From an uncultured Anaerolineales bacterium (lineage in GTDB: Bacteria > Chloroflexota > Anaerolineae > CG2-30-64-16), in contig CAZYGI010000013.1 of assembly GCA_964647255.1 (NCBI GenBank), positions 1,846-65,845 on the forward strand: a stretch of 64,000 nucleotides of DNA, in the 5' to 3' direction. The translations under genes and the position numbers were made by a program. Below, piece by piece: positions 34,990-51,655 of the stretch (position 1 is its first letter; each line of letters opens with the position of its first letter). The notes under the pieces were generated by a model. It was not told the DNA's origin and did not search any database. It saw nothing but the letters and a program-made list of their open reading frames with translations.

Positions 34990-35035
34990 AGGGGCGGCAC
35001 GTGAGATCGGTGAGTAGCTTTGAGGAGAAGCAGGG

Positions 35036-36004: not shown

Positions 36005-36010
36005 GCAATC

Positions 36011-36604: not shown

Positions 36605-36640
36605 TTTGCGCAGATCCGTTATCGGCATGAGGGAGTGAGA

Positions 36641-36982
36641 ATGGACCGGCAGGCCAACCTGGCTTTACGCATCGAGCAGCTCATCCTGCACGACCTGCCC
36701 TACAGCCAACGCAGCCGCGTGGCCGCAGCCATCGAGGCGGAGTTGACCCGCCTGCTGACCGAGCGGGGCATCCCCGAGGGGTGGAGTGGCGACATGCCGC
36801 CCATCAACGCCGGCCCGGTGCACGTCAGCCCGCACCTGTCGGCGGAGACCATAGGCCGGCAGGTGGCGGAAACGGTCTACGCAGGATTTGCCGGCGCCGC
36901 GCGCAGCACAGCGCCGGCCGGAGATCGAGCCGGGTCCGGACAGTTAATGTCGACGGCGCATCCCGGCGGGGAAAATCACTGA
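36641..36982 (+). CDS. hypothetical 113-aa protein
   Basis: The track ORF starts at GTG 36635. ATG 36641 has GGGAG 5 nt upstream. No domain recognised. Confidence 0.45.
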   Translation: MDRQANLALRIEQLILHDLPYSQRSRVAAAIEAELTRLLTERGIPEGWSGDMPPINAGPVHVSPHLSAETIGRQVAETVYAGFAGAARSTAPAGDRAGSGQLMSTAHPGGENH

Positions 36983-36992
36983 GGACGCACCT

Positions 36993-37649: not shown

Positions 37650-37658
37650 GGAGTTACC

Positions 37659-37955
37659 GTGTTCGATCATACCAGCCGTTACTACTACCTGGAAGATAGG
37701 ATCTACGAGACCCCAGACGGCCGCCAGATCGCCTACAAGGCCCGGCGCTTCCTGCCGCAGGGTCAGGCGCTGCCCCTGCTGGGCGAGGCCACCGCACGTG
37801 TGGAAGAACGCCTGGACCTGATTACCGCCCGCTCCTTGGGCGACCCGGCGCTGTTCTGGCAGATTTGCGATGCCAACAACGCCCTGGATCCTTTTGACCT
37901 GGTAGATGAGGCCGGCCGCGTCCTGCGCGTGCCGATTCCCCAGTTCGTGAAGTGA
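37659..37955 (+). CDS. LysM-like / phage tail protein X-like small protein
   Basis: GTG start with TAAGGAG 5 nt upstream. ARSLGDPALFWQICDANNALDPFDL...GRVLRVP resembles a LysM/gpX fold signature. Confidence 0.55.
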   Translation: MFDHTSRYYYLEDRIYETPDGRQIAYKARRFLPQGQALPLLGEATARVEERLDLITARSLGDPALFWQICDANNALDPFDLVDEAGRVLRVPIPQFVK

Positions 37956-37956
37956 T

Positions 37957-39096
37957 ATGAACCCGCCAAACCTTCTCCTCAACCTCCTCATCGGCCGCGT
38001 GGCGCCGGCGCCGGCGCCGATAGAGCTGATGACTGCGCTGGAAAGCGTCGAGGTGAACCAGAGCGACGACGGAGACGCCGGGTTCAGCCAGGGCTTCCAA
38101 CTGATTTTCCGCGCCGAGCGCGACAAGACGCTGACCAGCCAGGTTGCACTGCTGCACCAGCCGCTTCTGCAGCCGGGCGGGCGGGTGATACTCACGGTGA
38201 CCTTGGGTGGAACGCCCCAGGTGTTGATGGACGGCATCATCACCCATCACCAGTTTACCCCAGGCCGGGATGCGCGGTTGGTGGTGACCGGCAAGGATCT
38301 CAGCGTGCTGATGGATATGCTTGAACTCTCGCTGGGGTACCCGGCCATGCCCCACGAAGCGATTGTGGCCCTGGTGCTGGCGAAGTACGCAGCCTTCGGC
38401 ATTATTCCCGAGGTTATCCCGGCGCCGACCGCCTGGACGGGCACGCCGATCCAAGAGGTGCCCTTCCAGGTGGGCACAGACCGCACCTACCTGCGCACCC
38501 TGGCCCAGTCTCACGGGTATATTTTCGGCGTACGGCCGGGACCGGCGCCGGGGGTCAACCAGGCGTACTGGGGCCCCTTGATCAAGATCGGCGTGCCTCA
38601 GAAGGCGCTCAATGTGGACATGGGCGCGTCGACCAACGTGGAGTCTCTCGATTTCTCCAACGACTCGCTGGCGCCGGAGCAGGTGTATGGCCTGGTGCAC
38701 TTGCGAGACAGCGAGGTTCCCGTGCCGATTCTGACCATGGCCACGGTCGGGCTACAGCCCCTGGCCAGCCAGCAGGCCGTCCTTGCGAACCAACCCTTCG
38801 TACGCAAGACACGACTGGCATACCAGGGATCCAGTCCTATCGAGGCCCTGGCGCAAGCCCAGTCCACGACCAACTCGTCAAGCGAGGCCACCGTGACGGG
38901 CACGGGCGCCCTAGACGCCCTGCGCTATCGGGCGATCCTCACCGCGCCGGGCATCGTCGGCGTGCGCGGCGCAGGCGAGAGCTACGACGGCTACTACTGG
39001 GTCAAGAACGTGAAGCACCAGATCAGCCTGGGCGAGTACAAGCAAAGTTTCACCCTAACCCGCGAGGGAACCGGCACGACCACGCAAAGGATGTAA
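37957..39096 (+). CDS. phage late control gene D-like baseplate hub (gp27/VgrG N-terminal-like; Afp8 N-part)
   Basis: The C-terminal YYWVKNVKHQISLGEYKQSFTLTREG is typical of gpD-family proteins. The position immediately upstream of the spike gene agrees. Confidence 0.75.
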   Translation: MNPPNLLLNLLIGRVAPAPAPIELMTALESVEVNQSDDGDAGFSQGFQLIFRAERDKTLTSQVALLHQPLLQPGGRVILTVTLGGTPQVLMDGIITHHQFTPGRDARLVVTGKDLSVLMDMLELSLGYPAMPHEAIVALVLAKYAAFGIIPEVIPAPTAWTGTPIQEVPFQVGTDRTYLRTLAQSHGYIFGVRPGPAPGVNQAYWGPLIKIGVPQKALNVDMGASTNVESLDFSNDSLAPEQVYGLVHLRDSEVPVPILTMATVGLQPLASQQAVLANQPFVRKTRLAYQGSSPIEALAQAQSTTNSSSEATVTGTGALDALRYRAILTAPGIVGVRGAGESYDGYYWVKNVKHQISLGEYKQSFTLTREGTGTTTQRM

Positions 39097-39098
39097 GT

Positions 39099-39794
39099 AT
39101 GCCAAACTTTGGAAAATACCGCGGCAAAGTCATAGATCCCGTCGATCCGGAGCAACTGGGGCGCATCATCGCCCTCGTCCCTTCGATCTCCGAGCTGCCG
39201 CTGACCTGGGCCATGCCCGCCACACCCTACGCCGGCTCGGGCGTGGGCTTCTTTGCCATCCCGCCTGTGGGCGCCAACGTCTGGATCGAGTTCGAGGGCG
39301 GCGATCCTAACTATCCCATCTGGACGGGCTGCTTCTGGGGTGATGGCGAGGTGCCGGCCGAGCCGGCCCTCCCCACCACGCTGATGCTCAAAACCACGCT
39401 GGGGGTCTTCAGTATCAACAACTTGGATGCAGAGCTCAAGCTGAGCCTCACTGCTCCTGATGGGCAGATGACTCTGGTGATGAATCCCACGGGCATCAAG
39501 CTGAGCCTTAACGAGGTCAGCATCACCATCACCCAGGAAGCCATCACCTTGAGCCACGCGCCGTCCACGGTCGAGGTCACGCCCGAAGGCATCACCGCAT
39601 CCTGTCCCGAGAGCGTCACCCTGAACAGTGCCGAGGCCAGCGTCGAGGTGACGCCGGCGGCGATCAATCTCGCTAACGGCGCGGCCAGCATCGAGATCGC
39701 ACCGGCCGCCATTGCCATCGAGAACGGCGCCGGCAGCATTGCCATTTCGCCGGCCAGCGTCACCATCAACGAAGGCGCCCTGGAGATTATCTAA
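39099..39794 (+). CDS. gpV/gp5-like spike protein (OB-fold plus beta-helical needle; Afp8 C-part)
   Basis: GKYRGKVIDPVDPEQLGRI..WAMPATPYAG..GFFAIPPVGANVWIEFEGGDPNYPIWTGCFW is the baseplate-assembly-protein-V signature. The C-terminus has short periodic repeats (VEVTPEGITA..VEVTPAAINL..IEIAPAAIAI). Confidence 0.85.
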   Translation: MPNFGKYRGKVIDPVDPEQLGRIIALVPSISELPLTWAMPATPYAGSGVGFFAIPPVGANVWIEFEGGDPNYPIWTGCFWGDGEVPAEPALPTTLMLKTTLGVFSINNLDAELKLSLTAPDGQMTLVMNPTGIKLSLNEVSITITQEAITLSHAPSTVEVTPEGITASCPESVTLNSAEASVEVTPAAINLANGAASIEIAPAAIAIENGAGSIAISPASVTINEGALEII

Positions 39795-39795
39795 C

Positions 39796-40125
39796 ATGCC
39801 CGGATTCATCCTTCACGAAGGCGCGCTGGTGCAGTGCGCGCACGGCGGCATGGTCCAGCCCACCGTGCCCAACCCGCGGGTGACAGTCATGGGCATGCCG
39901 ATCATCACCGTCGGCGCGCCGTGGGTCGTCGCCGGCTGCGCGTTTCCGCCGCCGCCGGTCGCCAACGGGCCCTGCGTCGTCGCGGAGTGGCTGCCGCCGA
40001 CCGCCTCGCTGCGCGTCACCTCGATGGGCATGCCCGTGCTGGTGCAGAGCAGCCAGGCTATCTGCACCCCCACCGGCACGCCGGTGATCGTGGGCGTCAC
40101 GCAGACTCGCGTCATGGCGGAGTGA
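39796..40125 (+). CDS. PAAR-like spike-tip protein (Afp10/Cis10-like)
   Basis: Start at MPGFILHEGALVQCAHGG (ATG 39796, 1 nt after the spike stop). Small, Gly/Pro/Val/Cys-rich, in the canonical position after the spike. Confidence 0.65.
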   Translation: MPGFILHEGALVQCAHGGMVQPTVPNPRVTVMGMPIITVGAPWVVAGCAFPPPPVANGPCVVAEWLPPTASLRVTSMGMPVLVQSSQAICTPTGTPVIVGVTQTRVMAE

Positions 40126-40128
40126 TCC

Positions 40129-40479
40129 ATGCAGCTCGCTTTTCCGTACCGCATCAACCACACGGGCCGCACCAGCCAGGATCGCGGCATGCACCTGCGC
40201 GATCTCATCGAGCAAGTGTTGTTCACGACGCCGACCGAGCGCGTAAACCGGCCCGACTTCGGCGCCGGCGTGCTCGAACTGGTCTTCGCGGCCGAGAACG
40301 ATGAGCTCCTGGCCGCCAGCCGATTCATGATCCAGGGCGCCTTGCAACAGTGGCTCGGTGACCTGATCCAGGTCGAGGCTGTCGCAGTCGAGCGAGAGGA
40401 TACGACCGTGAGCATCACGATCCGGTACCTGGAGCGCCGCACCCAGGTGCGCCAGGTAGCCCAGTTCAGGAGCGCGTAG
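40129..40479 (+). CDS. gp25/GPW-like baseplate wedge protein (Afp9/Cis9-like)
   Basis: LRDLIEQVLFTTPTERVNRPDFGAGVLELVF matches the GPW_gp25 family core. Confidence 0.8.
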   Translation: MQLAFPYRINHTGRTSQDRGMHLRDLIEQVLFTTPTERVNRPDFGAGVLELVFAAENDELLAASRFMIQGALQQWLGDLIQVEAVAVEREDTTVSITIRYLERRTQVRQVAQFRSA

Positions 40480-40483
40480 CCCC

Positions 40484-42616
40484 ATGAGCCGCTTTGACCG
40501 CCCGCCTGAGATTGATTACCTGGCCAAGGATTTTGCCAGCTTCCGGCAGCTCATGCTGGACCAGATCGCGCTGCTGATTCCCGACTGGCAGGAGCGCCAT
40601 CCCGCCGATCTGGGCAACGTTCTGGTGGAGATCCTGGCGTATGCGGCGGACTATCTTAGCTACACGCAAGATGCCATCGCCACTGAGGCCTATCTGGGCA
40701 CAGCCCGCCTCCGGCGTTCCGTGCGGCGGCACGCCAGGCTTCTCGACTACAATCTCCACAACGGGTGCAACGCGCGGACCTGGGTCCATATCGCCCTCCA
40801 GCCGAGCGCCGGTGACTGGCGCCTGCCCAAAGGCGCTTTGCTTCTGGCCGGTTTCGACGGCTACGGCCGGTCAGTGGTCACCCCCGGCGAGTTGGCGGCG
40901 ATCATGGCGCAGGACTCGCCGGTGCAGGTGTTCACAACCCTGCACGATGTGCAACTTTCAGGTGGACAGCCTGAGATTGCATTCTATGTCCAGGATCGCG
41001 CGGACGTGGTGCTGCGCTGCGGCGCGACATCGGCCCGCCTGGCGGACAGCCTCGACCCGCAGACCCACAGGAGCGCCCTCGATGATCTCCAGGTCGGCGA
41101 TGTGCTCATCTTCGAACAACGGCTGAATCCCGAAAGTGGTTTAAGTGCAGGCGTGGATCCCGGCCATCGGCACGCGGTGCGGTTGACCAAGATCGTGCGA
41201 ACGTCGCAGGCGCGGTGGCAGGCGGAGACGGCCCATACCGCAAGCCCGGTCCCCACGCTGCCGCCTGTTGGCATCCAGTGGGATCAGGCTGATGCGCTGC
41301 CGTTCGACCTGCCAGTTGGCGCCTACCGCTCAGCAGCCACAGGGTCTGGCGGCAGGGACAGAGAACTCAGCGTTGCCCTGCGCAACATCGTGCTGGTGGA
41401 TCATGGCGCCTGGGTCGAGCCGGAGAGGCTGCCGGCCGTGATCGCCGACGCGCGTTACCGCCCGTCTCTCACGCACCGAAATGTGACCTACACAACGGTC
41501 TATAATCACGCCCAGGCGTGTCGCCAGCCGGCTAGCGCCGCAACGGCCCAGCGCCCGTATGACGCCCAGGCCGCGGTCGAGCTGACAGAGCAGCGAACCC
41601 TCGTGCTGCCGGAATCCGCGGATCACCCGCCGCTGCTGCGGATGTCCCAGGCCGCCACCGGCGGCGCCCGGTTTGAGTCGCTTCATCGCTGGGTTCAGCG
41701 CCGCGACCTCCTGAGCAGCGACCGGACCGCGCGCACCTTCGTGGTGGAAACCGAAGACGACGGACGGGCGTACTTGCGCTTTGGCTACGGCGGCCTGGGC
41801 AAGGGACTCTCTGCCGGCGATACGCTGGTCGCCACCTATCGCGTTGGCAACGGTTCGCAGGGCAACGTCGGGCGGCATGCCATCGCGCACCTGGTTTCGG
41901 ATGATCGGATCAGCGGCATGGCCGCTCGGATCCAGGAGGTGCGCAACCCGCTCCCCGTCACGAGCGGCTTCGATGCGGAATCCATCGAAACGACGCGGCT
42001 GTCCGCGCCCCACGCCTTCCAAACGCCCTTGAGCTGCGTCAGCCCTGAGGATTACGCTGCGCAGGCGCTGCAGCTTCCCGGTGGCGGGGTGCGCCAGGCC
42101 AGGGCGCGGATCGAGCACACCGGCAATTGGCAGACGGTCTTCGTGTACGTGCAGCGCCAGGGGGGCCGGCCCCTGGATCCCGCGTTCGGCCAGCAATTGC
42201 TGGCCTGGCTGCAGCCGCGGGCCATGAGCGGCTACGAGGTGGCGATACGACCGCCCCACATGGCTGCGCTCGACCTCCATCTGCGCGTGTGGGTCGCGCC
42301 CCATCGGTTCAAAAGTGCTGTGCGTCAGGCAGTGCAGGAGGCACTCAGCAACAAAGCGCAAGCAGACGGTGAACAGGGGTTTTTCCATCCAGACAACCTG
42401 AGCTTCGGCCGTTCAATCTACAGGAGCGAGGTGATTCGCGCCGCAATGGCCCTCGACGACGTTGCTCGGGTTGAGATCGTGCGGTTCAACCGGCAGGATG
42501 ACACCCGCCAGATGGACCCGTTGCCCATTGGGGATCTGGAGATCGCCCGGCTCGACGCCGACCCCGATCGGCCCCAATACGGCACGCTGCGTGTTGACGT
42601 GGAAGGGGGCCTATGA
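40484..42616 (+). CDS. baseplate J/gp6-like wedge protein (Afp11/Cis11-like)
   Basis: The N-terminal EIDYLAKDFASFRQLMLDQIALLIPDW...DLGNVLVEILAYAADYLSYTQDAIATEAYLGTA is the baseplate-J-type signature. Confidence 0.8.
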   Translation: MSRFDRPPEIDYLAKDFASFRQLMLDQIALLIPDWQERHPADLGNVLVEILAYAADYLSYTQDAIATEAYLGTARLRRSVRRHARLLDYNLHNGCNARTWVHIALQPSAGDWRLPKGALLLAGFDGYGRSVVTPGELAAIMAQDSPVQVFTTLHDVQLSGGQPEIAFYVQDRADVVLRCGATSARLADSLDPQTHRSALDDLQVGDVLIFEQRLNPESGLSAGVDPGHRHAVRLTKIVRTSQARWQAETAHTASPVPTLPPVGIQWDQADALPFDLPVGAYRSAATGSGGRDRELSVALRNIVLVDHGAWVEPERLPAVIADARYRPSLTHRNVTYTTVYNHAQACRQPASAATAQRPYDAQAAVELTEQRTLVLPESADHPPLLRMSQAATGGARFESLHRWVQRRDLLSSDRTARTFVVETEDDGRAYLRFGYGGLGKGLSAGDTLVATYRVGNGSQGNVGRHAIAHLVSDDRISGMAARIQEVRNPLPVTSGFDAESIETTRLSAPHAFQTPLSCVSPEDYAAQALQLPGGGVRQARARIEHTGNWQTVFVYVQRQGGRPLDPAFGQQLLAWLQPRAMSGYEVAIRPPHMAALDLHLRVWVAPHRFKSAVRQAVQEALSNKAQADGEQGFFHPDNLSFGRSIYRSEVIRAAMALDDVARVEIVRFNRQDDTRQMDPLPIGDLEIARLDADPDRPQYGTLRVDVEGGL

Positions 42617-45600
42617 ACGACATCGCCGGCGAGCACGCCCTCCAGCTTCCAGCCGTTAGCGTCGAGCGCACGCGCATCAACCCGCCAGGCCGGTCTCAAC
42701 TGGCGTACGGGGGTGGAGCTTACCTGGCAGTCCTGGATCGGATGTTGATCCGGCTGCCGCGCCAGGTGATCCCCGGGCCGGATGGCGGCCCGGACCTGGC
42801 GCCGTTCGCCCGGTTCAACGCCGACTCCGGCGACGACTGGACCGTGGCCCTGCTGCATGCCTGGGCCGCGGTGACCGACGTGCTCGGCTTCTATCACGAA
42901 CGCATCATCAACGAAGGCTATCTGCGGACGGCGACCGAGCGCCTGTCGGTCGTGCAGTTGGCGCGCACCGTAGGCTACGAGTTGCACCCTGGCCTGGCCG
43001 CCGGCGCCGTGCTGGCTCTCACCGTGGTGCAGGGGCTGGGCGAACCGCCCAGGACCTTTTTCGTGCCGAAGGGCACGGCCGTGCAGAGCCTTCCGTCACC
43101 CAAGAGCGGGCTGCACCAGGGAACGCCAGCCAGCAGCATGCCGCAGGTCTTCGAGACCAGCGACGATTTCGTGGCCCGTTCGGACTGGAACCTCCTGCGG
43201 CCGGCAGCCAGCGGTGAATTGACCGGGGAACATCGCATCCTGCCCGGCACGAATTCCTTGCGCCTCCTGGGCAACCGCACTGACCTGAGAAAGGGAGACC
43301 GGCTGCTGTTCATCGGCCAGGACCCGACGCATCCGCAGCGCAAGCTCTGGCAGATGGCCCAGGTGAAGGTCACCGCGCCCAACGCCGCCGGGTTCACCGC
43401 GGTCTCGTGGGAAAGCGTGCCTGGCCTGCCAGCGGGTCCTCTGCCGCTCCTAGGCCCCGACCCAGAGCCCGACGTCGAGCCGCTAGCCATCGCCGCCCCC
43501 CAGCTCTTCGTGCTGCGCCAGCAGGCCAAACTATTCACTTACACGGCGGCCGGGGTCTACCGCACCTGGCCTTCCCAGGGGACAGCGGGCGAACCTGACG
43601 CCGGGGATGTCGCAACCTCCGGCAGCGCCGACGGACAAGCTCCGGCCGCTGCGCATGACGTCCAGCCCCAGCCAGCCTGGTGGCCGGCCGGCATCGGCCT
43701 GCCGCACGAGCCGGTAGACTTGCTCCTGAGCACCCGGAGCGGCCATCTGCTGGGAGTCACCACGAAAGGCATCTACCGCTCGAACGACGGCGGGGCCACG
43801 TGGCAGCCAGCCGGCGCAGGGTTGCAAGCCAGGCATATCACGGCCCTGACCGAAGGCAATGATGGCACGCTCTACGCCGGCACCGACAAGGGCGAGGTGC
43901 ACCTGTCACAGGACGAGGGCGAAACCTGGCGGCAGGCGGCCGGCGACCCCATCCACCTGCCCGTGCGCGGCCTGGGCAAGCTGGCGCCGGCTATCCTGCG
44001 CAGCACGGGCCACCTGCCGGAGGTCGTCGTCACCTCGCTGGCAGCCTACCGCAGCGGCGGCACAGACGTGCTGGCCGCCGGCGCCGACTCGGGTGTGTTC
44101 CTGTCAACGAATCAGGGCCGGCAGTGGAAGGCGGCCAATCTGGTGCTGCCCAAGCTCGACCGCAAGACCGGCATGGCAAAGGTCAGCGTACAGGCGCTGG
44201 GCGTCGTCCGCGCCGGCAAGCGCCAGCAGCTCTACGCCGGCACAGACGAGGGGGTGTTCCCTATCCGGGCGACGTCCAGCGCGACGCCTGTCATCCTGGC
44301 CGGCCTAGTGTTGGCCGTGCTCTACCGGCTGATACTCAACCCGGGCGGCATCCTGACCAGGCAAGTCTATACTGCGGTCGTCAATTTGACCAAGGCTGCC
44401 GGCGCCGCAGTCGCCGCACTCTTGACCCGGTTGAATGAGATCGCCGGGATCAACCTGCCCCCGATCAGCGATCCGCTGGCAACCCCCGTCGCGAAGTTGA
44501 TCGGCAACGTGGGCAAGGCGATCTTGACGCCTATCGCCCAGCTTCCCGCGACCATACCGGTCCCTACGGCGACGCCGGCCAGCACAGCCAGCGCAACGGC
44601 CACGGCGATGGCGACGGCCACCGCAACGCCTACGGCGATGGCCGCGGTGACTGTGACACCCGCGGCAACGGCCGCGGCCGCGTCGGCTCCGGTCGCAGCA
44701 GCGCTGCCCAAGCCGATTGCGGCAATCCTGGCCGTCTTAGACCAGTATCCGGTGCTCTGGTTTCTTGTTGATGCCGCGTTGATCGCCGCGGCGATCGGCA
44801 TCGTGATGATCGCCTGGTGGCTGATCTGGCGTTTCTTGAACAACCGGCCCGGCCGTCGCATCGCCGGCGCGCTTCCCCCTGCCGCGCTGCCGGCCGCAAT
44901 GCCGGGCAAGCTGCCCGGTGTGAAAGATCTGATCCAGCAGCTCACGGCCCAGAGGCCCCCTGTGGCAGTGCGAGATCTCAAAGCCAACCTGACGGGGCTG
45001 TACGCTGGGACGGCCCAAGGCGTTTATCATGCCGCGGGACCTGGGCCAGGACCGCAAGACAAGTGGCTGCGCCGCCTGGGCGCGCGTCTCGTGCAGATCG
45101 CTTTTCCCGGCCTGCTGGCCGGTTGGACCCGGTTGGAGACCGCTTCGCAGGCTCAGCCGGATGTCCAGTCGCTGGCCTTGCCTGAACCGGATTCCCTGCT
45201 GGCGGCTACCGGGGCTGGCGCGACCCACCATTACCGTTATGTCAATAATTCTTGGAAACCGACGGAGGCGGATGGCGCACCGGCAGCGTTGACAGGCATC
45301 GCCGGCACTGCCGCACTCGGCAAGGGGCTGTTCCTGGCCGGGACGCCGCCTAAGGCCAAAGTCGACCCCGCCTGGTCGCCCTGGCAGTTGCAAGAACACG
45401 CCATCCACCTGGACGCGCTGCCTGATGGCATCGCGGCGGGGAGCTGGCTGGTTTTGGACGCTGCAGGCGGGGCCCAGACCGACCAGCCCTCGCCCTTGCC
45501 GCGCTTGTACCAGGTGCGCAAAACTGAGCGCGCCGACAGCAGCGATGCCAGCAAGAAGCAGCCGCTCACGCGCGTGGTTGTTGACCGGGGCGATGACCTG

Positions 45601-47328
45601 GCGCGCTATGACCGCACGACAGCGCGCGCGCTGTTCCAGAGTGAGCCGTTGGCGATCTATGACGACCGGCCGGTGCAGGGCAGCATCCTGGCCCTCGACC
45701 GGGTTGTGACGGACCTGCGGCCAGGCCAACCCGTGATCATCAGCGGCAAGCGCATGCGCGCCCGGTTGATCGCTCCAGCGGACCCCCCCGTCACTTTGAC
45801 AACATTGAACGGGCTGCAAACAGTGCCGATCCGGCCGGGAGAATCGCTGATCGTGCTCAGGCCTCCGCAGCGCCAGGCCGTGACGAACCAAAATGCAAGC
45901 CGGACACGTGGCGACGCCGCTCAGGCCCCCGGCCCAGCGGACCAGCAGCCCACCGCGGAAATCTGGCGCCTGCGCAACCGGGATGGGATCGAGGGCGAGG
46001 CGACCATCGAAGCCGCGACGGACGCGGCCGCGCCTCAGTTCGTCATCGAGCCGCCGCACGACGATGATCCGGAGGTCAACGAGCTTGCCGCGCTCTACGA
46101 TATCGCCGCCAGCGCCGACCGGACGACGCTCACGCTGACCACCGATTTGTCTGCCCCGGACCGGACGCTCAGGCCGCTCGCCAACATGTTCGAGCGGACG
46201 ACGGTTACCCTGCGTGCCAACATCGTTCAGGCCACGCACGGCAGCACGGTACCGCTAGAGGTGCTGGGCAGCAGCGATGGCTCGCAAGCCAATCAACGCT
46301 TCCTGCTGCGCCAGGCCCCGCTGACCTACATCAGCGCCGCCACGCCGGAGGGCCGACAGAGCACGTTGGCCGTCACGGTGGCCGGGGTGCGTTGGCGACA
46401 GGCGCCGTTCCTGTACGGGCATCCGCGCGACGAGCGGGCCTACATCGTGCAGCACGACGAACAAGGCCGGGCCACCATCACCTTCGGCGACGGCCGCGCC
46501 GGTGCGCGCCTGCCCAGCACACGAGAGGAGGTTCGGGCCACCTATCGCATCGGGATCGGCGAGGCAGGAAACGTGCCCGCGGGCAGCCTGACCCAACTGC
46601 GGTCCGCGCCGCCTGGGCTGGCAGGTGTGACCAATCCGCTCCCGGCATCGGGCGGCGTCGAACCGGAGACGAACGACTCAATCCGGGCGAACGTGTCGCT
46701 TGGGCTGCACGCCATGCACCGCATCGTCTCTTTGAGCGACTACGAGGACTTCGTGCGTTCCTTTGCCGGCATCGGGCGGGTGCAAGCCAAGATGTTCCAC
46801 CGCGGTCATGGCGGCCTGTTGCACCTCACCGTTGCCGACGCCGACGGCAACCCACTGCCGCTAACCTCAAACCTTTACCTGAACCTGGTGACGGCGGTTG
46901 AGCGCGCCCGGGTCGCGCCCACGCCACGGCTGCGGATTGATGCCTACGAGCCGGTATTCTTCGATGTCGCGCTCAAGGTGGTCGTGGACCACGACTTCAA
47001 AGCCCGGCAGGCAACGATCGAGCAGCAAGCCAGGCTGGCTTTGAGCAACGCCTTCACGTTCCAGCGCCGCGACTTCGGCCAGGGCGTGTCGGCGTCGGAG
47101 ATCATCAACCTGGTCCAGCCGATCGCTGGGGTCGTGGGTGTCGAGATCACGCAGCTGGCCTATCACGGCAGCAGTCCAACCCAACCGCCCCCCGATACGG
47201 CGCAGGCCGTGGCCGCGCAACCCGCCCGCTGGCCGCAGGACGCCGTCCTTCCCGCACCAGCCCAGTTGCTGTTGATCAACAGTCAGAATCCGAAGGGCAT
47301 CGCCATCGCCGTGGAGTTTGTGCCATGA
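42613..47328 (+). CDS. giant baseplate wedge protein (putative-baseplate-assembly family) with a ~640-aa insertion carrying Asp-box/BNR repeats, two predicted TM helices and an Ala/Thr/Pro linker
   Basis: N-terminal family signature DDWTVALLHAWAAVTDVLGFYHERIINEGYLRTATERLSVVQLARTVGY. Asp-boxes SNDGGATW (43780-43803), SQDEGETW (43906-43929) and STNQGRQW (44104-44127). Hydrophobic helices PVILAGLVLAVLYRLIL (44287-44337) and VLWFLVDAALIAAAIGIVMIAWWLIWRFL (44752-44838). ATGA coupling at both ends. Confidence 0.8.
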   Translation: MNDIAGEHALQLPAVSVERTRINPPGRSQLAYGGGAYLAVLDRMLIRLPRQVIPGPDGGPDLAPFARFNADSGDDWTVALLHAWAAVTDVLGFYHERIINEGYLRTATERLSVVQLARTVGYELHPGLAAGAVLALTVVQGLGEPPRTFFVPKGTAVQSLPSPKSGLHQGTPASSMPQVFETSDDFVARSDWNLLRPAASGELTGEHRILPGTNSLRLLGNRTDLRKGDRLLFIGQDPTHPQRKLWQMAQVKVTAPNAAGFTAVSWESVPGLPAGPLPLLGPDPEPDVEPLAIAAPQLFVLRQQAKLFTYTAAGVYRTWPSQGTAGEPDAGDVATSGSADGQAPAAAHDVQPQPAWWPAGIGLPHEPVDLLLSTRSGHLLGVTTKGIYRSNDGGATWQPAGAGLQARHITALTEGNDGTLYAGTDKGEVHLSQDEGETWRQAAGDPIHLPVRGLGKLAPAILRSTGHLPEVVVTSLAAYRSGGTDVLAAGADSGVFLSTNQGRQWKAANLVLPKLDRKTGMAKVSVQALGVVRAGKRQQLYAGTDEGVFPIRATSSATPVILAGLVLAVLYRLILNPGGILTRQVYTAVVNLTKAAGAAVAALLTRLNEIAGINLPPISDPLATPVAKLIGNVGKAILTPIAQLPATIPVPTATPASTASATATAMATATATPTAMAAVTVTPAATAAAASAPVAAALPKPIAAILAVLDQYPVLWFLVDAALIAAAIGIVMIAWWLIWRFLNNRPGRRIAGALPPAALPAAMPGKLPGVKDLIQQLTAQRPPVAVRDLKANLTGLYAGTAQGVYHAAGPGPGPQDKWLRRLGARLVQIAFPGLLAGWTRLETASQAQPDVQSLALPEPDSLLAATGAGATHHYRYVNNSWKPTEADGAPAALTGIAGTAALGKGLFLAGTPPKAKVDPAWSPWQLQEHAIHLDALPDGIAAGSWLVLDAAGGAQTDQPSPLPRLYQVRKTERADSSDASKKQPLTRVVVDRGDDLARYDRTTARALFQSEPLAIYDDRPVQGSILALDRVVTDLRPGQPVIISGKRMRARLIAPADPPVTLTTLNGLQTVPIRPGESLIVLRPPQRQAVTNQNASRTRGDAAQAPGPADQQPTAEIWRLRNRDGIEGEATIEAATDAAAPQFVIEPPHDDDPEVNELAALYDIAASADRTTLTLTTDLSAPDRTLRPLANMFERTTVTLRANIVQATHGSTVPLEVLGSSDGSQANQRFLLRQAPLTYISAATPEGRQSTLAVTVAGVRWRQAPFLYGHPRDERAYIVQHDEQGRATITFGDGRAGARLPSTREEVRATYRIGIGEAGNVPAGSLTQLRSAPPGLAGVTNPLPASGGVEPETNDSIRANVSLGLHAMHRIVSLSDYEDFVRSFAGIGRVQAKMFHRGHGGLLHLTVADADGNPLPLTSNLYLNLVTAVERARVAPTPRLRIDAYEPVFFDVALKVVVDHDFKARQATIEQQARLALSNAFTFQRRDFGQGVSASEIINLVQPIAGVVGVEITQLAYHGSSPTQPPPDTAQAVAAQPARWPQDAVLPAPAQLLLINSQNPKGIAIAVEFVP

Positions 47329-49694
47329 GTGACAGCATCGAAGAACGCTTCTATGCCCTGTTGCCGCAGTTGTATCGCCATCGTGACATGCTGCAAGGCC
47401 AGCCCCTGCGCGCGCTCCTGGCCGTGCTTGAAGGAGAGTATCAGGCGCTGAGCCAGGACATGCAGGCCACCTACGACAATTGGTTCGTGGACACCTGCGA
47501 TGAGTGGGTGTTGCCCTACCTGGCCGACCTGCTCGGCATCCGCGGCCTGGACCACGTCCAGCACCTGTTTCCCACCCAGCGCCGCCTCGTGGCCAACGCC
47601 CTGGCCTACCGGCGCCGCAAAGGGACCGCAGCCGTCTTGGAGCACGTCTTGCGCGATGTGACCGGCTGGGACGTGCGGGTGGTCGAATTCTTCCAGCTCC
47701 TATCGGTCACCCAACATCTGTCCGCGCTCCGGCCCAACACCGGCCGCAGCGTGGATCTCCGGGAGTCCCTCGCCCTGTCGCAAGCAGGCGGCGCCTTCGA
47801 GCGCTTTGCGCACACCCTGGATGTAAGAGGCAACGAGGCCGAGCTTGTGCTATCCGGTTCTGACCGAGGGGCCCAGCCATCGAAGTATCACCCGGCTAAC
47901 CTGGGCATCTTCGTGTGGCGGCTGCGCGCCTACCCCCTGGATGACACCTTCGCCCGTCCGGTCGCCGGTTCCGCGCACGCGGGGTGCTTCACCTTCGACG
48001 CGGCCGGTCGTTCGGTGCGCCTGTTCAACCGTCCTCAGCCCGTGGATAGCATCCTGGATCGCGCCCAGGCGCCCAATCTGACCATCCCCCTGACCCGCGC
48101 GTTGCTGGACTCTGACCTGCGGGCCGCAGCAGATGAGGCCGGCAACGGCGCCTATTACGGTCCCGACCGCAGCTTCATGATCAGCTATCGAACCGGACCA
48201 GGCGATCCTTTCCAGCCAGTTCAGCCTGAAGGCCTGCTGGTGGCTGACCTCTCTAGCTGGCGCCTTCCACCAGGCCAGCCATCGGACGCGTCCGGCGGCC
48301 CGAAGATCGTCGCCGTGGATCCGGAACTGGGACGGATGAGGTTTCTCTTGCCGCAGGGGCCCAAGGAGATGGGCGACGTCATCGTCAGCTACACCTATGG
48401 CTTCAACGCCGATTTGGGAGGAGGCGCCTACAGCCGCTACGCAGATCTGCAGGCGCTGGAAAACCTCCCCGAACACGCGCTGCGGATCAGTGTCGCCGAG
48501 GGCGGCCTGAGCGAGCTCCCAGCAATCGCGGACGCAAGTGACCGCGACGCTTTAGATTGGCCGCGTCCACTTCGTACGCTCCAGGCGGCCCTGGACGCGT
48601 GGGAACGCTACTGCGAAGACTGCGCGGTCAAAGACCTGCGGCCGATCGGCGCCATCGTCATCCTGGACAACGGGCGCTACGGCGGCAAGTCGCAGCGCGG
48701 TGACAGCCAAACGCTCGATGCGAGCGGCGATCTGGTGATCCGGCTGCCACAGGGCGCGCAATTGTCCATCATCGCCGCCGATGGCGTGCGACCCTCCATC
48801 CGGCCCTTCAATCGGCTGAGGATCACCACGACGCTCGAGCCAATCCCGCGGAAGGGAGTTGAGCCACGGCTGCTGAGCAAAGCCAGTGAGCCATCCGCGC
48901 CCGATCGCCGCCTGCAGTTAAACGGGATCCTGCTCGAGGGCCGGCCCATCGAGATCAACGACGAGCCATTTGATGGCTTCATAGACCTGGAGCTGAAACA
49001 CTGCACGACTCTGGCATCGGGCATCAGGGTCAAGTTACGCTCGCCACGCTCCCAGGCGTTGCGCGTTCGGATCGAAAATAGCATCGTGGGTGCGGTGCGG
49101 CTTCCCAGTGACACCTTCGAGTTGGCGATCGCCGACAGCATCGTAGATTCGGGCGACGAAGAAGATGCCATCGCGGGGAGTAAACCTGGAGAAATGGGGC
49201 CGGCCACAACACTAGAGCGCGTTACGGTCTTGGGCGCTACACGAGTTCTTGAACTGAAGCTGGCCTCGGATGTGATCTTCACCCAGCCCCTGCATGTCGA
49301 GCACTGCCAAGGCGGGCTGATCCGCCGGTGTTATGTACCGCCGGAAAGCCAGGCGACGCCGCGCCGCGAGCACTGCCAACCCGACCTCGCCCTCGAGGCG
49401 CTCGGTCGCATCACAACACCGCCCGACACGGCCGCTGCCGAGGCGCTTGCCGCTGAAAAGGATCGGCTGCAACGGCGAATACGGCCCATCTTCACATCCA
49501 CCGATCCTGGCCATCCCGGCTACGCGCAGTTGCACCCTTCAACCGCCGTCGAGATACGGAGCGGCGGCCAGGCCGGTGCAGAAATGGGCGCATTTCATGA
49601 CCTGTACGAACATCAACGCGTGGCAAACCTGCGCCGAGCGTTGGACGAGTACTTGCCGCTGGGCAAGCAGGTCAGCATCCATTTCGTGACCTAG
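47325..49694 (+). CDS. P2 gpI-like baseplate/tail protein (Afp12/Cis12-like)
   Basis: The N-terminal ERFYALLPQLYRHRD...LRALLAVLEGEYQAL...WFVDTCDEWVLPYLADLLGI is the phage-tail-protein-I-type domain signature. Confidence 0.75.
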   Translation: MSDSIEERFYALLPQLYRHRDMLQGQPLRALLAVLEGEYQALSQDMQATYDNWFVDTCDEWVLPYLADLLGIRGLDHVQHLFPTQRRLVANALAYRRRKGTAAVLEHVLRDVTGWDVRVVEFFQLLSVTQHLSALRPNTGRSVDLRESLALSQAGGAFERFAHTLDVRGNEAELVLSGSDRGAQPSKYHPANLGIFVWRLRAYPLDDTFARPVAGSAHAGCFTFDAAGRSVRLFNRPQPVDSILDRAQAPNLTIPLTRALLDSDLRAAADEAGNGAYYGPDRSFMISYRTGPGDPFQPVQPEGLLVADLSSWRLPPGQPSDASGGPKIVAVDPELGRMRFLLPQGPKEMGDVIVSYTYGFNADLGGGAYSRYADLQALENLPEHALRISVAEGGLSELPAIADASDRDALDWPRPLRTLQAALDAWERYCEDCAVKDLRPIGAIVILDNGRYGGKSQRGDSQTLDASGDLVIRLPQGAQLSIIAADGVRPSIRPFNRLRITTTLEPIPRKGVEPRLLSKASEPSAPDRRLQLNGILLEGRPIEINDEPFDGFIDLELKHCTTLASGIRVKLRSPRSQALRVRIENSIVGAVRLPSDTFELAIADSIVDSGDEEDAIAGSKPGEMGPATTLERVTVLGATRVLELKLASDVIFTQPLHVEHCQGGLIRRCYVPPESQATPRREHCQPDLALEALGRITTPPDTAAAEALAAEKDRLQRRIRPIFTSTDPGHPGYAQLHPSTAVEIRSGGQAGAEMGAFHDLYEHQRVANLRRALDEYLPLGKQVSIHFVT

Positions 49695-49750
49695 TTGCAG
49701 GGATGCGCCGCTGCGCGGTCAGGCATTTTCCACAGACAATGAAGGTAACA

Positions 49751-51655
49751 ATGCGAGGCGATTTCTCACGTTCGACATTTGATCCCAAGCAACACTACAC
49801 CACCGTGCGCATGCAACAGGGCCGGATGCAGCTTGATGCCGACTGGAACGAGCAGATGGACATCCTGTTGCACCTGCTGCGCGTCCAGGCGCAAGACCTG
49901 CTAGGCCCTTACGGCGCACCTGCGCGTTCGGCCGGTTTCGCCATCTCGCTGCCGGAGCGCGGCGGTCTTCAGGACGATCTGCGCATCGCGGCCGGCCGTT
50001 ACTACGTTGACGGCATCCTGGTGGAAAACGATAGCGACACGTTGTTCCGTGCGCAACCGTATTGGCCCAATGCTGACCTGCGGGAGGCCATGCATGACGC
50101 CGACCGCTGCGTGATCTATCTGGATGTGTGGGAGCGACATCTGAGCGGCGCCGAGGCGCCGTCGCTCCTCGAGCCTGCCCTGGGCGGCCTCGATACCACC
50201 ACCCGCACCCAGACCGTGTGGCAGGTGAAACGATGGCCGGCGACCTCCTCGGACAAAGTTCCCCAACCAGCTACGAACAAGGGCCTGTTGAGCGCATGGA
50301 GCCAATGGCGTGATGCGCAGAGCCGACCAGGCGGTTCGGTCGGTCGTGGCGCGCTGCGCCCCAGGGTGACACCGGCCGGTTACGGCCTGACCAATCAGCT
50401 TTATCGGGTCGAAATCCACACCGGAGGCGATGAAGCGACGTTCAAGTGGTCGCGGAACAACGGCTCGGTCACGTTTGTTGTGACGAGCCTACAATTCAAA
50501 GACGCGCTGCTGACGGTCACGTTGGAAGGTGTATCGGCGGCGACGGACCTACAGGTGGGCGACTGGTTGGAACTGGCTGATCCGTCGTACGAGCTAAGCT
50601 CGCGGCCGGCGCCGCTGTTCAAGATCCACGACTCACCCAACTGGGATTCCGCGTCCGCGACGGTCAACCTGGTTCCCGCGACCGCTCCGAGCGAACAAGA
50701 CCGCCAGGAGATCGAGGCCATTGGACAGCACCTATCCCAAGGCAGGCAGATCCAACTGGATGGCATGCGCACAGTCCTGCGGCGTTGGGACCACAATGAG
50801 CATGCCCAGGGGAACAGCGCCGGCCTGGATGGCGCCATCGCGGTGCGACCCAACCAGTGGCTGCCCCTTGAAAACGGCATCGAGGTCCGCTTTGAGGGCG
50901 CCAGTGACCTGCGCACAGGCGACTACTGGCTTATTCCTGCCCGCAGCGAGACCGAGGGCTATTCGCTCCTCTGGCCAGTTGAACCCGCACAGGTCAATGC
51001 AACCCGCAGTGAGGCGTCAGCCGTCGATCCGACTGCCCCTGAAGCAGCATCACAAAGTCTCTCGTATGCGAAGCAACCTGCGCAGCGGATCGAACACCAT
51101 CTTGCCCCTTTGGCGGTGCTCTTCCGCGACGGAACAGCTCCGGCCGTGTCCGACCTGCGAACGCTCTTCCAGCCCGTTGTCGGCTTCGAATCTGACGAAA
51201 CCGCTATCGAGCAACGCCTGCAGGGTGCGATTGACGCGCTGAGGGGCGAAATCACCCAAATGTCGTCTGCGGTCTACCCGGTGGCCGATCCCAGCGCCGG
51301 CCTCGAATCAGGCCAGGTGGTTGCCCTGGATCCGGTCAGCGGCGGCATCGAGCTGGCCAAACGCAGCAATGCATCCCTTGTCGTCGGCGTGACGCTCGGT
51401 CCCTTTGGCGACTGGGAGGAGCGGAAACAGGCAACCCCAAGCTACCGGGTAGCGCAAACCGGCCGCCACCAATGCCTGGTGCGCGGTCGGATTGAGCCCG
51501 GCGACCTGCTGGTACCCTCGGATGTGCCCGGCTATGCCATGTCGGCAGGACTGATTATCCAGCCAGGCGCGGTGATCGGCAAGGCGCTACAGGCCCACCA
51601 CCCAACCGATGTCAAAGAGGTTGCAACGATCGCCATCATGGTGACCTTACAGTAA
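49751..51655 (+). CDS. DUF6519-like protein (CIS-associated, function unknown)
   Basis: Start set at MRGDFSRSTFDPKQHYTTVRMQQGRMQLDADWNEQ (ATG 49751). I recall this N-terminal motif from DUF6519-type proteins encoded at the distal end of eCIS loci (memory only). Confidence 0.6.
   Translation: MRGDFSRSTFDPKQHYTTVRMQQGRMQLDADWNEQMDILLHLLRVQAQDLLGPYGAPARSAGFAISLPERGGLQDDLRIAAGRYYVDGILVENDSDTLFRAQPYWPNADLREAMHDADRCVIYLDVWERHLSGAEAPSLLEPALGGLDTTTRTQTVWQVKRWPATSSDKVPQPATNKGLLSAWSQWRDAQSRPGGSVGRGALRPRVTPAGYGLTNQLYRVEIHTGGDEATFKWSRNNGSVTFVVTSLQFKDALLTVTLEGVSAATDLQVGDWLELADPSYELSSRPAPLFKIHDSPNWDSASATVNLVPATAPSEQDRQEIEAIGQHLSQGRQIQLDGMRTVLRRWDHNEHAQGNSAGLDGAIAVRPNQWLPLENGIEVRFEGASDLRTGDYWLIPARSETEGYSLLWPVEPAQVNATRSEASAVDPTAPEAASQSLSYAKQPAQRIEHHLAPLAVLFRDGTAPAVSDLRTLFQPVVGFESDETAIEQRLQGAIDALRGEITQMSSAVYPVADPSAGLESGQVVALDPVSGGIELAKRSNASLVVGVTLGPFGDWEERKQATPSYRVAQTGRHQCLVRGRIEPGDLLVPSDVPGYAMSAGLIIQPGAVIGKALQAHHPTDVKEVATIAIMVTLQ

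What the first reader, a model, noticed from the sequence alone, without database searches (positions are those of the whole stretch)
43540..45460. Baseplate wedge protein carries a ~640-aa insertion with Asp-box (BNR) repeats and two predicted transmembrane helices
Seen in sequence: the 1,571-aa ORF begins and ends like a baseplate-assembly (gp6/J-type) protein. Residues ~310-950 form an insertion containing:
- three S-x-D-x-G-x-(T/Q)-W Asp-boxes (43780, 43906, 44104), typical of BNR/Ycf48-like beta-propellers;
- a moderately hydrophobic helix (44287-44337);
- an Ala/Thr/Pro low-complexity linker (about 44560-44710);
- a very hydrophobic 29-residue helix followed by basic residues (44752-44838, ...WWLIWRFLNNRPGRR).

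Established knowledge: classical eCIS baseplates are soluble and released. Membrane attachment through baseplate extensions has been described only for a few cytoplasmic or thylakoid-anchored CIS, in cyanobacteria and Streptomyces.

Inference: this particle may be tethered to the producer's membrane through its wedge, with a propeller domain displayed on one side. That would make it a membrane-anchored CIS of a new design.
Basis: partly seen in the sequence, partly recalled or inferred. Interest (0 to 1): 0.85.

Follow-up and report, generated by a model that had tools for sequence, protein, structure and literature searches.

The report
Baseplate wedge protein with membrane hairpin
A phage-tail-like injection machine in a Chloroflexota bacterium has a baseplate wedge protein carrying a beta-propeller split by two membrane-spanning helices, so the particle probably anchors itself in the cell membrane without a separate adaptor protein; no such built-in anchor turned up in the literature searched.

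Summary
ORF 42613-47328 (1,571 aa) is the second of two tandem gp6/Cis11-type wedge genes in a complete contractile injection system (CIS) cluster. The host is a Caldilineales-like Chloroflexota bacterium. The closest solved structure is the Streptomyces cytoplasmic CIS.

Relative to short homologues, residues ~333-930 are an insertion. It is a roughly seven-bladed Asp-box beta-propeller. Between blades 4 and 5 sits a second insert of two hydrophobic helices (aa 557-575 and 714-739) joined by a 137-aa loop.

In this Ala/Leu/Val-rich protein, hydrophobicity alone is weak evidence. The family-level evidence is strong:
- About 30 homologues (31-65% identity) keep the helix pair at the same place.
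- The top hydrophobic peak falls in that zone in 23 of 25 proteins.
- Most members (22 of 28) show two helices, or four; three or one are scored in the other six.
- Lys/Arg favour the propeller-side flanks 132:44.
- The loop varies from 14 to 230 aa.
- These proteins form one clade, seen so far only in Chloroflexota.

Intact near-identical copies in two independent assemblies exclude a frameshift fusion. The best reading is a built-in N-in/C-in membrane anchor. This is a new variant of CIS membrane attachment, predicted but not shown experimentally.

The parts
42613..47328 (+). cis11b: the second gp6/Baseplate_J-type wedge gene, 1,571 aa. Its ATGA start and stop overlap both neighbouring genes.
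42613..43608 (+). N-terminal wedge core (aa 1-332), including the gp6-like helical segment. It aligns with short homologues that lack the insertion.
43609..44271 (+). Propeller blades 1-4 (aa ~333-553), carrying the three Asp-boxes at nt 43780, 43906 and 44104.
44281..44337 (+). Predicted TM helix 1 (aa 557-575, ATPVILAGLVLAVLYRLIL). It is marginally hydrophobic and preceded by Arg.
44338..44751 (+). Inter-helix loop (aa 576-713), predicted to be extracytoplasmic. It has two modelled helices and the Ala/Thr/Pro low-complexity linker (nt ~44551-44712).
44752..44829 (+). Predicted TM helix 2 (aa 714-739, VLWFLVDAALIAAAIGIVMIAWWLIW), with a family-conserved Asp near its outer end.
44830..44859 (+). 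Conserved basic stop-transfer motif RFLNNRPGRR (aa 740-749), leading straight into blade 5.
44875..45402 (+). Propeller blades 5-7 (aa ~755-930).
45403..47325 (+). C-terminal wedge core (aa 931-1571), with the Baseplate_J/TIGR02243 domain.
40484..42616 (+). cis11a: the first gp6/TIGR02243 paralogue (710 aa). It has no propeller and no TM helix.
47325..49694 (+). cis12: the gp7/Tail_P2_I-type wedge protein (789 aa).
49703..51655 (+). DUF6519 protein (650 aa), conserved downstream of cis12 in most related loci.
26114..40479 (+). The rest of the CIS cluster. It holds the sheath, the gp19-type tube (28342-28872), the Pvc16-type cap, the AAA ATPase, a CIS_tube protein, the VgrG-type spike, PAAR and gp25.

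Best explanation
Cis11b is an integral-membrane baseplate wedge subunit.

**Architecture (shown by sequence and model)**
- A gp6-type core carries an inserted Asp-box beta-propeller of about seven blades.
- The connection between blades 4 and 5 carries a helical hairpin with an N-in/C-in topology.
- Only about 5-15 residues separate each helix from the adjacent blade, so the propeller should sit flat on the cytoplasmic face of the membrane.
- The variable loop (14-230 aa in the family) would project outside.

**Mechanism (inferred)**
- One Cis11a, one Cis11b and one Cis12 form each of the six wedges. This copies the two-Cis11-plus-one-Cis12 wedge of the Streptomyces CIS.
- Six hairpins, or 12 helices, would then dock the baseplate, spike first, onto the cytoplasmic membrane of this monoderm-type filamentous bacterium.
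- In this way Cis11b would replace a separate adaptor such as Streptomyces CisA.
- Contraction would drive the spike through the producer's own membrane. The outcome would be either contact-dependent delivery outward or stress-induced cell death; which one cannot be told from sequence.
For: **Cluster and lineage**
- The CIS cluster is complete and has the gene order gp25, Cis11a, Cis11b, Cis12.
- The nearest solved relatives are S. coelicolor CIS Cis11 (9gtp, 12 chains, E 6e-17 with the family profile) and its sheath (8bky/9gtp, E 5e-69).
- In that structure each wedge holds two Cis11 and one Cis12 (PMC12237407).

**Structure model**
- The AlphaFold2 model of aa 290-960 has pLDDT 74.8 and pTM 0.71, with blades above 90.
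- It places helices at aa 558-575 and 713-743 and a disordered Ala/Thr/Pro linker.
- Foldseek returns only propellers such as Ycf48, BT4663 and WD40.

**Family evidence for the hairpin**
- The helix pair sits at the same inter-blade site in about 30 homologues.
- The top KD19 peak lies in that zone in 23 of 25 proteins, and both top peaks do in 22 of 25, although the zone covers only 5-18% of each protein.
- Helix number is 2 in 21 proteins and 4 in 1. A Ktedonobacterales genome locus, L004, also has 4.
- Lys/Arg count 132 on the propeller-side flanks against 44 on the loop-side flanks. The four-helix protein alternates correctly.
- Loop length is free to vary, while the motif R-x-x-N-x-R-x-x-R ... 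PVxAL after helix 2 is conserved.
- Helix-bearing proteins form one clade in a neighbour-joining tree of the C-terminal core.

**Specificity and natural control**
- No other structural CIS protein of the cluster, from sheath to DUF6519, has a comparable hydrophobic segment. Weaker peaks occur in the cap (KD19 1.81), the 379-aa protein (1.97) and the sheath (1.74). The terminal 258-aa gene does have an N-terminal TM segment (KD19 2.51).
- Calidithermus chliarophilus, whose Cis11b homologue (locus L010) has no helices, was imaged with free-floating cytoplasmic CIS (PMC12998442). I did not confirm that L010 is the cluster that was imaged.
Against: - No topology predictor or experiment was available.
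- Helix 1 of this protein is only marginal: the summed Hessa scale gives +1.65 kcal/mol for 19 residues, against -2.2 for helix 2.
- Comparable KD19 peaks arise by chance in 4-20% of shuffles of this one sequence.
- Four family members score three peaks and two score one with the crude threshold.
- Wedge stoichiometry and the direction in which the insertion points are inferred, not shown. I could not map the insertion site onto a solved Cis11 structure.
- Asp-box propellers are usually extracytoplasmic, whereas here the propeller must be cytoplasmic.
Confidence: 0.62

Rival explanations
1. The particle is a released extracellular CIS. The propeller is a receptor-binding or cage domain. The hydrophobic hairpin stays shielded in the particle, or binds membranes only peripherally, and acts on the target membrane after release.
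For: - Propellers of this type bind glycans or peptides in other proteins: BT4663, GH74 enzymes and Ycf48.
- Cyanobacterial Cis11b homologues carry many propellers and no helices, so the propeller has a role independent of any anchor.
- AlgoCIS Alg11 has a large extra domain (residues 278-643) inserted at a similar place in the sequence. That domain forms a carbohydrate-binding spike cage (PMC8894135).
Against: - A positive-inside bias of 132:44, predominantly even helix numbers, and a freely variable, Thr/Pro/Ala-rich connecting loop are marks of co-translationally inserted hairpins. They are not marks of shielded fusion-type segments.
- Helix 2 spans 26 residues and reaches KD19 of about 3.0-3.3 in lower-GC homologues.
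- The sheath and Cis11 are closest to the non-released Streptomyces cytoplasmic CIS.
Confidence: 0.2
2. The two segments are ordinary buried or oligomerisation helices of a soluble baseplate extension. Their hydrophobicity simply reflects the Ala/Leu/Val-rich composition of a high-GC genome.
For: - Shuffles of this protein reach the same KD19 in 4-20% of trials.
- Helix 1 is above 0 kcal/mol on the Hessa scale.
- The pLDDT of the helical module is only about 65-83.
Against: - The segments are the most hydrophobic 19-mers of the whole protein in 23 of 25 family members, and always at the same site.
- They become more hydrophobic, not less, in homologues with different composition, reaching KD19 of 3.3.
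- The charge asymmetry of the flanks would have no explanation.
Confidence: 0.12
3. The ORF is an assembly or frameshift artefact that fuses a wedge gene with an unrelated membrane or propeller gene.
For: Nothing beyond the unusual length and the low-complexity linker.
Against: - An intact 1,572-aa near-identical ORF occurs in two independent assemblies, L082 and L083.
- The same architecture occurs in about 30 homologues and in four named Chloroflexota genomes.
- The wedge core is split around the insertion, and the propeller is split around the hairpin. No simple fusion can produce that nesting.
- The ATGA overlaps with both neighbours are intact.
Confidence: 0.01

Closest known systems
Streptomyces coelicolor cytoplasmic CIS with the bitopic membrane adaptor CisA (PDB 9GTP; PMC12237407, PMC10066040)
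   Same: - It is the closest solved sheath (E 5e-69) and the closest solved Cis11.
- Its wedge is built from two Cis11-type subunits plus one Cis12.
- The link between baseplate and membrane is proposed to run through Cis11.
   Different: - Streptomyces uses two copies of a single Cis11 and a separate membrane protein, CisA, that is thought to bind transiently.
- Here there are two distinct Cis11 paralogues, and the membrane helices are part of Cis11b itself. That implies constitutive rather than conditional attachment.
- A cisA homologue was not looked for.
Thylakoid-anchored CIS of Anabaena sp. PCC 7120 (PDB 7B5H; PMC8894136)
   Same: The baseplate is tied to a membrane of the producer cell through extensions of baseplate-associated proteins.
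   Different: - There the anchor is a single C-terminal TM helix of the fibre-like Cis13, plus a Cis12 extension with a putative amphipathic helix. Its Cis11 (All3317) forms a spike cage and has no TM helix.
- All3317 matches the present family only weakly (E 0.002).
- Thylakoids are not known from Caldilineales-type Chloroflexota (established knowledge; the window's placement rests).
Haloarchaeal T6SS-like CIS of Halogeometricum borinquense (PMC11566945)
   Same: It has two cis11 genes in the cluster, and the particle stands perpendicular on the cytoplasmic membrane of a single-membrane cell.
   Different: The proposed anchor is a separate protein with six TM helices (Hbor_38620), encoded upstream of the cluster. 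No TM helix is reported in either Cis11.
AlgoCIS Alg11 cage domain and the T6SS subtype iv membrane attachment site (PDB 7AEB; PMC8894135)
   Same: A large extra domain (Alg11 residues 278-643) is inserted after the N-terminal ~280 residues of a Cis11 protein. This is a similar place in the sequence to aa ~333 here. The authors name that domain as the hotspot that mediates inner-membrane attachment in T6SS subtype iv.
   Different: The Alg11 domain consists of two carbohydrate-binding modules that form a spike cage, with no propeller and no TM helix. Structural equivalence of the insertion sites was not established here.
Canonical T6SS (TssJLM membrane complex with TssEFGK baseplate)
   Same: It is a contractile machine fixed to the producer's cytoplasmic membrane with the spike pointing outward.
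   Different: - The anchoring is done by a dedicated trans-envelope complex, and TssF (the gp6 homologue) is soluble.
- No TssJ, TssL, TssM or TssK is detectable here. The only trace is a sub-threshold TssG match of Cis12.

Membership tests
Cis11 / gp6 / Baseplate_J wedge proteins (TIGR02243, PF04865) | The protein passes the curated family models. | tested here: met
   TIGR02243 scores 180.4 bits against a cut-off of 155.8. PF04865 scores 35.6 bits against a cut-off of 21.1.
Cis11 / gp6 / Baseplate_J wedge proteins (TIGR02243, PF04865) | The gene lies between the gp25-type and gp7/P2-I-type genes of a contractile-tail cluster. | tested here: met
   The order is gp25 (40129-40479), Cis11a, Cis11b, then Tail_P2_I (47325-49694). 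The same order occurs in about 80 related loci.
Cis11 / gp6 / Baseplate_J wedge proteins (TIGR02243, PF04865) | Sequence relationship to structurally solved gp6-type proteins. | tested here: met
   The family profile hits S. coelicolor Cis11 9gtp (6e-17), Alg11 7aeb (2.6e-5), T4 gp6 5hx2 (1e-4) and All3317 7b5h (2e-3).
Cis11 / gp6 / Baseplate_J wedge proteins (TIGR02243, PF04865) | Physical incorporation into the wedge as one of the two gp6 positions. | not testable with these tools
   This needs cryo-EM or co-purification. It is inferred from the 2:1 wedge of CIS-Sc.
BNR/Asp-box beta-propellers (Ycf48-, sortilin-, GH74-like) | Repeated S-x-D-x-G-x-T-W motifs at blade turns. | tested here: met
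   There are three motifs. None of 5,000 shuffles reached three.
BNR/Asp-box beta-propellers (Ycf48-, sortilin-, GH74-like) | The protein passes the curated Pfam thresholds. | tested here: not met
   BNR scores 22 against 27, Sortilin-Vps10 25.9 against 33, and PSII_BNR 12 against 27. The family profile nonetheless hits the BNR hydrolase 3b7f at 3e-14 and Ycf48 at 2e-8.
BNR/Asp-box beta-propellers (Ycf48-, sortilin-, GH74-like) | A closed multi-bladed propeller fold. | tested here: met
   The AlphaFold2 model has four-stranded blades at pLDDT above 90 on both sides of the hairpin. Foldseek's top hits are all propellers, some aligned over about 600 columns.
Thylakoid-anchored CIS (Anabaena type) | A Cis13 fibre with a C-terminal TM helix, a Cis12 extension and a Cis19 crown. 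| tested here: not met
   No TM helix is seen in Cis12 or in the DUF6519 protein. Cis11 is only remotely related. Cis19 was not searched for specifically.
Streptomyces-type cytoplasmic CIS (lineage IId in the papers' nomenclature) | Closest sheath and Cis11 relationship. | tested here: met
   Among solved structures, the S. coelicolor CIS is the best match for both proteins. A formal lineage tree was not built.
Streptomyces-type cytoplasmic CIS (lineage IId in the papers' nomenclature) | Free-floating particles that need a CisA-type adaptor for membrane contact. | not tested
   No CisA sequence was on hand. The built-in hairpin argues against free-floating particles, but only imaging can tell.
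Integral membrane helical hairpin | Two hydrophobic spans of about 19 residues or more, with a positive-inside flank bias and conserved position. | tested here: met
   Searches support this for the family. For this protein, helix 2 is clear and helix 1 is marginal.
Integral membrane helical hairpin | Prediction by a dedicated topology program, or an experimental topology. | not testable with these tools
   DeepTMHMM, Phobius and TMHMM were not available.

The most novel reading that the evidence does not exclude
The hairpin may be more than a tether. It could be the trigger of the machine. The helices sit in Cis11b, a subunit of the wedge ring whose opening starts sheath contraction. Perturbation of the membrane, or a signal received by the external loop, could then be passed through the rigid propeller to the wedge and fire the CIS. 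This would make it a self-contained membrane-integrity sensor coupled to an injection or suicide device. It would also explain how CisA-less cytoplasmic CIS of Chloroflexota reach the membrane.
Probability: 0.15. Interest if true: 0.85.

Novelty: new variant of a known kind. Interest (0 to 1): 0.64.

Why it matters
How non-T6SS contractile injection systems meet a membrane is an open question.
- In Streptomyces, firing needs the separate membrane protein CisA, and its contact with Cis11 is unproven.
- For Roseiflexus and its relatives, the authors state that the mechanism is unknown because close cisA homologues are absent (PMC12998442).

A Chloroflexota clade in which Cis11b itself carries a conserved membrane hairpin suggests a direct, genetically simple solution. 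It also gives a natural comparison set: sister lineages with a propeller only, or with no insertion at all.

Cultivable relatives make the idea testable by fractionation and cryo-ET. These are Kouleothrix and Ktedonobacterales members; cultivability is from my own knowledge.

The site may also be useful as an engineering point for tethering CIS particles to membranes.

Tried and rejected
**Searches that led nowhere**
- PDB sequence searches with Cis11a and Cis12 alone gave no hits.
- A PDB search with the N-terminal 340 aa gave only a sub-threshold gp6 match. I therefore could not map the insertion site onto Alg11, All3317 or CIS-Sc Cis11.
- The exhaustive search of 1.84 billion representatives with the insertion (aa 290-960) was swamped by generic multi-propeller proteins: 24,657 hits at E <= 0.001. 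Even so, every top-150 hit with internal helix pairs flanked by wedge-core homology was a Cis11b. It added about eight further 50%-identity clusters, and the module turned up in no other protein family.
- An exact look-up of the window protein in the contig index failed. The 1,572-aa cluster mate worked.
- Literature searches for 'Cis11b', for Afp11 with transmembrane, and for Kouleothrix with CIS found no prior description.

**Ideas considered and dropped**
- Frameshift fusion was rejected (see the rival explanations).
- Membership of the Anabaena thylakoid-anchored type was rejected.
- The terminal 258-aa TM protein was considered as a CisA analogue. It was set aside because only 12 residues precede its TM helix and it is absent from all related loci.

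**Not used**
The second structure-prediction job was not used, because the tools return no coordinates with which to orient the insertion.
Full report
**1. What is in the sequence**

The window holds an ORF at 42613..47328 (+) of 1,571 aa.
- Its ATG overlaps the stop codon of the upstream gene (ATGA), and its own stop overlaps the ATG of the downstream gene.
- The three Asp-boxes are at aa 390, 432 and 498, which is nt 43780, 43906 and 44104. The two hydrophobic segments are aa 557-575 and 714-739. The Ala/Thr/Pro linker is aa ~647-700.
- Three Asp-box matches never occurred in 5,000 shuffles.
- Hydrophobicity is weaker evidence. The protein is rich in Ala, Leu and Val, so shuffles reach the Kyte-Doolittle 19-residue mean (KD19) of segment 1 in 20% of trials and that of segment 2 in 4%. 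On a simple Hessa sum, segment 2 is clearly membrane-like (-2.2 kcal/mol) and segment 1 is marginal (+1.65).

**2. Genomic context**

The gene lies in a complete contractile injection system (CIS) cluster on the + strand:

| Component | Coordinates |
|---|---|
| Sheath | 26114-27796 |
| gp19-type tube | 28342-28872 |
| Pvc16-type cap | 31814-33004 |
| AAA ATPase | 33001-34989 |
| CIS_tube protein | 36993-37649 |
| VgrG-type spike | 39099-39794 |
| PAAR | to 40125 |
| gp25 | 40129-40479 |
| TIGR02243/Baseplate_J protein, 710 aa | 40484-42616 |
| Target ORF, also TIGR02243 (180 bits, cut-off 155.8) | 42613-47328 |
| Tail_P2_I (gp7-type) protein, 789 aa | 47325-49694 |
| DUF6519 protein | 49703-51655 |

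The target is therefore the second of two tandem gp6/Cis11 paralogues. I call them Cis11a and Cis11b; they share 27% identity over the C-terminal domain.

This tandem arrangement, followed by Cis12 and DUF6519, is the rule in about 80 related loci from many phyla. Two cis11 genes have also been noted in a haloarchaeal cluster (PMC11566945).

The threonyl-tRNA synthetase in the window is about 80% identical to those of Caldilineaceae, Litorilinea and Anaerolineae MAGs. The host is thus a Caldilineales-like member of the Chloroflexota.

Among solved structures, the sheath and Cis11b are closest to the cytoplasmic CIS of Streptomyces coelicolor. The sheath matches 8bky/9gtp at E 5e-69, and Cis11 of 9gtp matches the family profile at E 6e-17.

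**3. Anatomy of the insertion**

- Against the 918-aa homologue P0041, the wedge core aligns as aa 23-332 and 931-1559. Residues ~333-930 are therefore inserted.
- Against the cyanobacterial homologue P0035, which has the propeller but no hydrophobic pair, aa 63-553 and 790-1567 align. The hairpin module (aa ~554-789) is thus a second insertion, inside the propeller.
- An AlphaFold2 model of aa 290-960 was built with 31 aligned sequences (mean pLDDT 74.8, pTM 0.71). It gives four-stranded blades with pLDDT above 90, four before the module and three after it.
- The same model places helices at aa 558-575, 580-610, 625-642 and 713-743, and a disordered stretch at the Ala/Thr/Pro linker.
- Foldseek against the PDB returns only beta-propellers: Ycf48, the periplasmic domain of BT4663, and WD40 proteins. 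The family profile hits a BNR glycosidase (3b7f, 3e-14) and Ycf48 (2e-8) by sequence.
- The Pfam BNR-type models stay below their curated thresholds.

**4. Is the hairpin real? Family evidence**

The protein search found 247 relatives. These fall into three groups:
- About 30 relatives, at 31-65% identity and 1,286-1,744 aa, keep three or four Asp-boxes and a pair of strongly hydrophobic segments at the same place.
- Cyanobacterial relatives have up to 20 Asp-boxes and no such segments.
- The shortest relatives (~870-1,100 aa) have neither feature.

The evidence from the first group is as follows.
- In an alignment of 25 helix-bearing members, the most hydrophobic 19-mer of the whole protein lies between blades 4 and 5 in 23 of 25. 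Both top peaks lie there in 22 of 25, although the zone is only 5-18% of the length.
- The number of peaks is two in 21 proteins, four in one, three in four and one in two of 28, using a crude threshold. A Ktedonobacterales genome also shows four. Even numbers are what an insertion within a single folded domain requires.
- Lys and Arg are three times more frequent on the flanks next to the propeller than on the flanks next to the connecting loop (132 against 44). In the four-helix protein the pattern alternates correctly.
- The loop between the helices varies from 14 to 230 residues. In contrast, the sequence after helix 2 (R-x-x-N-x-R-x-x-R, then PVxAL entering blade 5) and an Asp near the outer end of helix 2 are conserved.
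- In a neighbour-joining tree of the C-terminal core, the helix-bearing proteins form essentially one clade, distinct from the cyanobacterial multi-propeller clade.
- Named genomes with the variant are all Chloroflexota: Kouleothrix, Ktedonobacteraceae, Ktedonobacterales and Anaerolineae. The Kouleothrix locus has the same synteny.
- The exhaustive search of 1.84 billion representatives added about eight more 50%-identity clusters. The module appeared in no other protein family among the top 150.

**5. Artefact excluded**

- A near-identical 1,572-aa ORF is intact on contigs from two independent metagenome assemblies.
- The nested architecture, with the core split by the propeller and the propeller split by the hairpin, cannot arise from joining two genes.

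**6. Most likely mechanism**

The N-terminus has no signal sequence, and the wedge core must assemble with cytoplasmic sheath and tube. Both halves of the propeller are therefore cytoplasmic, and the hairpin must be N-in/C-in with the loop outside. This agrees with the charge bias.

Few residues separate each helix from its blade, so the propeller should lie against the inner face of the membrane.

The following steps are inferred:
- By analogy with the S. coelicolor wedge (two Cis11 and one Cis12), each wedge would hold Cis11a, Cis11b and Cis12.
- That would give six hairpins per baseplate.
- The particle would then be fixed to the cytoplasmic membrane with no separate adaptor.

Sequence does not decide what firing achieves. 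The options are outward delivery, as in a T6SS, or stress-induced death of the producer, as in Streptomyces and Anabaena.

A useful natural control is Calidithermus chliarophilus. Its Cis11b homologue in my set (L010) has no helices, and cryo-ET showed its CIS unattached in the cytoplasm (PMC12998442). I did not verify that L010 is the imaged cluster.

**7. Comparison with known systems**

Known CIS membrane attachments use other parts:
- Anabaena uses the TM helix of the fibre-like Cis13, plus a Cis12 extension.
- Streptomyces uses the separate bitopic CisA, predicted to bind Cis11.
- Haloarchaea use a separate six-helix protein.
- T6SS subtype iv attaches at a site on the Alg11-type cage domain.
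- The canonical T6SS uses TssJLM.

A hairpin built into a Cis11 paralogue through a propeller was not found in the searchable literature. I therefore rate it a new variant of a known kind, namely a membrane-attached CIS. It is predicted from sequence and is so far restricted to one Chloroflexota clade.

**8. Limits**

- No topology predictor and no model coordinates were available.
- Helix 1 of this particular protein is marginal.
- Stoichiometry and orientation are inferred.
- The role of the propeller and of the variable external loop is unexplained.

Noticed in passing
window 40484-42616 and 42613-47328; loci L002-L081: Two tandem gp6/Cis11 paralogues, followed by Cis12 and a DUF6519 protein, are the standard layout in about 80 related loci. 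The phyla include Acidobacteriota, Chloroflexota, Cyanobacteria, Pseudomonadota, Verrucomicrobiota and Deinococcota. This suggests wedges in which the two gp6 positions are filled by different proteins.
   Followed up: partly
window 51668-52444 (+): The last gene of the cluster encodes a 258-aa protein. It has an N-terminal hydrophobic anchor (aa 13-31), TDTPTTEPTxTPTP repeats, and three Cys-containing repeats with a sub-threshold Jacalin-lectin match. It is probably a surface lectin-like protein. It is absent from all related loci, and with only 12 residues before its anchor it does not resemble CisA.
   Followed up: partly
proteins P0026, P0028, P0031, P0039, P0045 (cyanobacterial homologues; e.g. 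Calothrix sp. NIES-2098): Cyanobacterial Cis11b homologues reach 2,500-2,700 aa, with 12-20 Asp-boxes (several propellers) and no hydrophobic helices. They form a separate clade. The function of these giant wedge extensions is unknown.
   Followed up: partly
protein P0019 and locus L004 10810-15288 (Ktedonobacterales MAG): Some members of the helix-bearing clade have four strongly hydrophobic helices (KD19 about 2.4-3.3) instead of two, with alternating charge bias. This is a double hairpin at the same inter-blade site.
   Followed up: partly
window 22431-25367 (+): A 978-aa multi-PAS histidine kinase (HisKA_3/HATPase_c) with one hydrophobic segment lies directly upstream of the sheath gene. 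It is a possible regulator of the cluster.
   Followed up: no
window 53065-54990 (-): A 641-aa protein of the phospholipase D family has an N-terminal hydrophobic segment and a weak lamin-tail-domain match. It is encoded convergently just downstream of the cluster. It could be an effector, or it could be unrelated.
   Followed up: no
window 29628-31817, 35036-36004 and 36011-36604 (+): Three cluster genes (729, 322 and 197 aa) have no significant family match. The 322-aa protein shows only faint alpha/beta-hydrolase hits. They are candidates for a tape measure, cargo or effectors.
   Followed up: no
window 7065-20821 (-): Upstream of the CIS cluster lies a block of three multicopper-oxidase-like genes, a CBM96 protein and a 2,280-aa surface-type protein with SdrD_B/TIG domains. 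The block looks unrelated to the CIS.
   Followed up: no
window 39712-40125 (+): The mechanical ORF for the PAAR protein (137 aa, TTG start) overlaps the spike gene. Gene calls on the near-identical contigs give 109 aa, so the true start is probably near 39796.
   Followed up: partly
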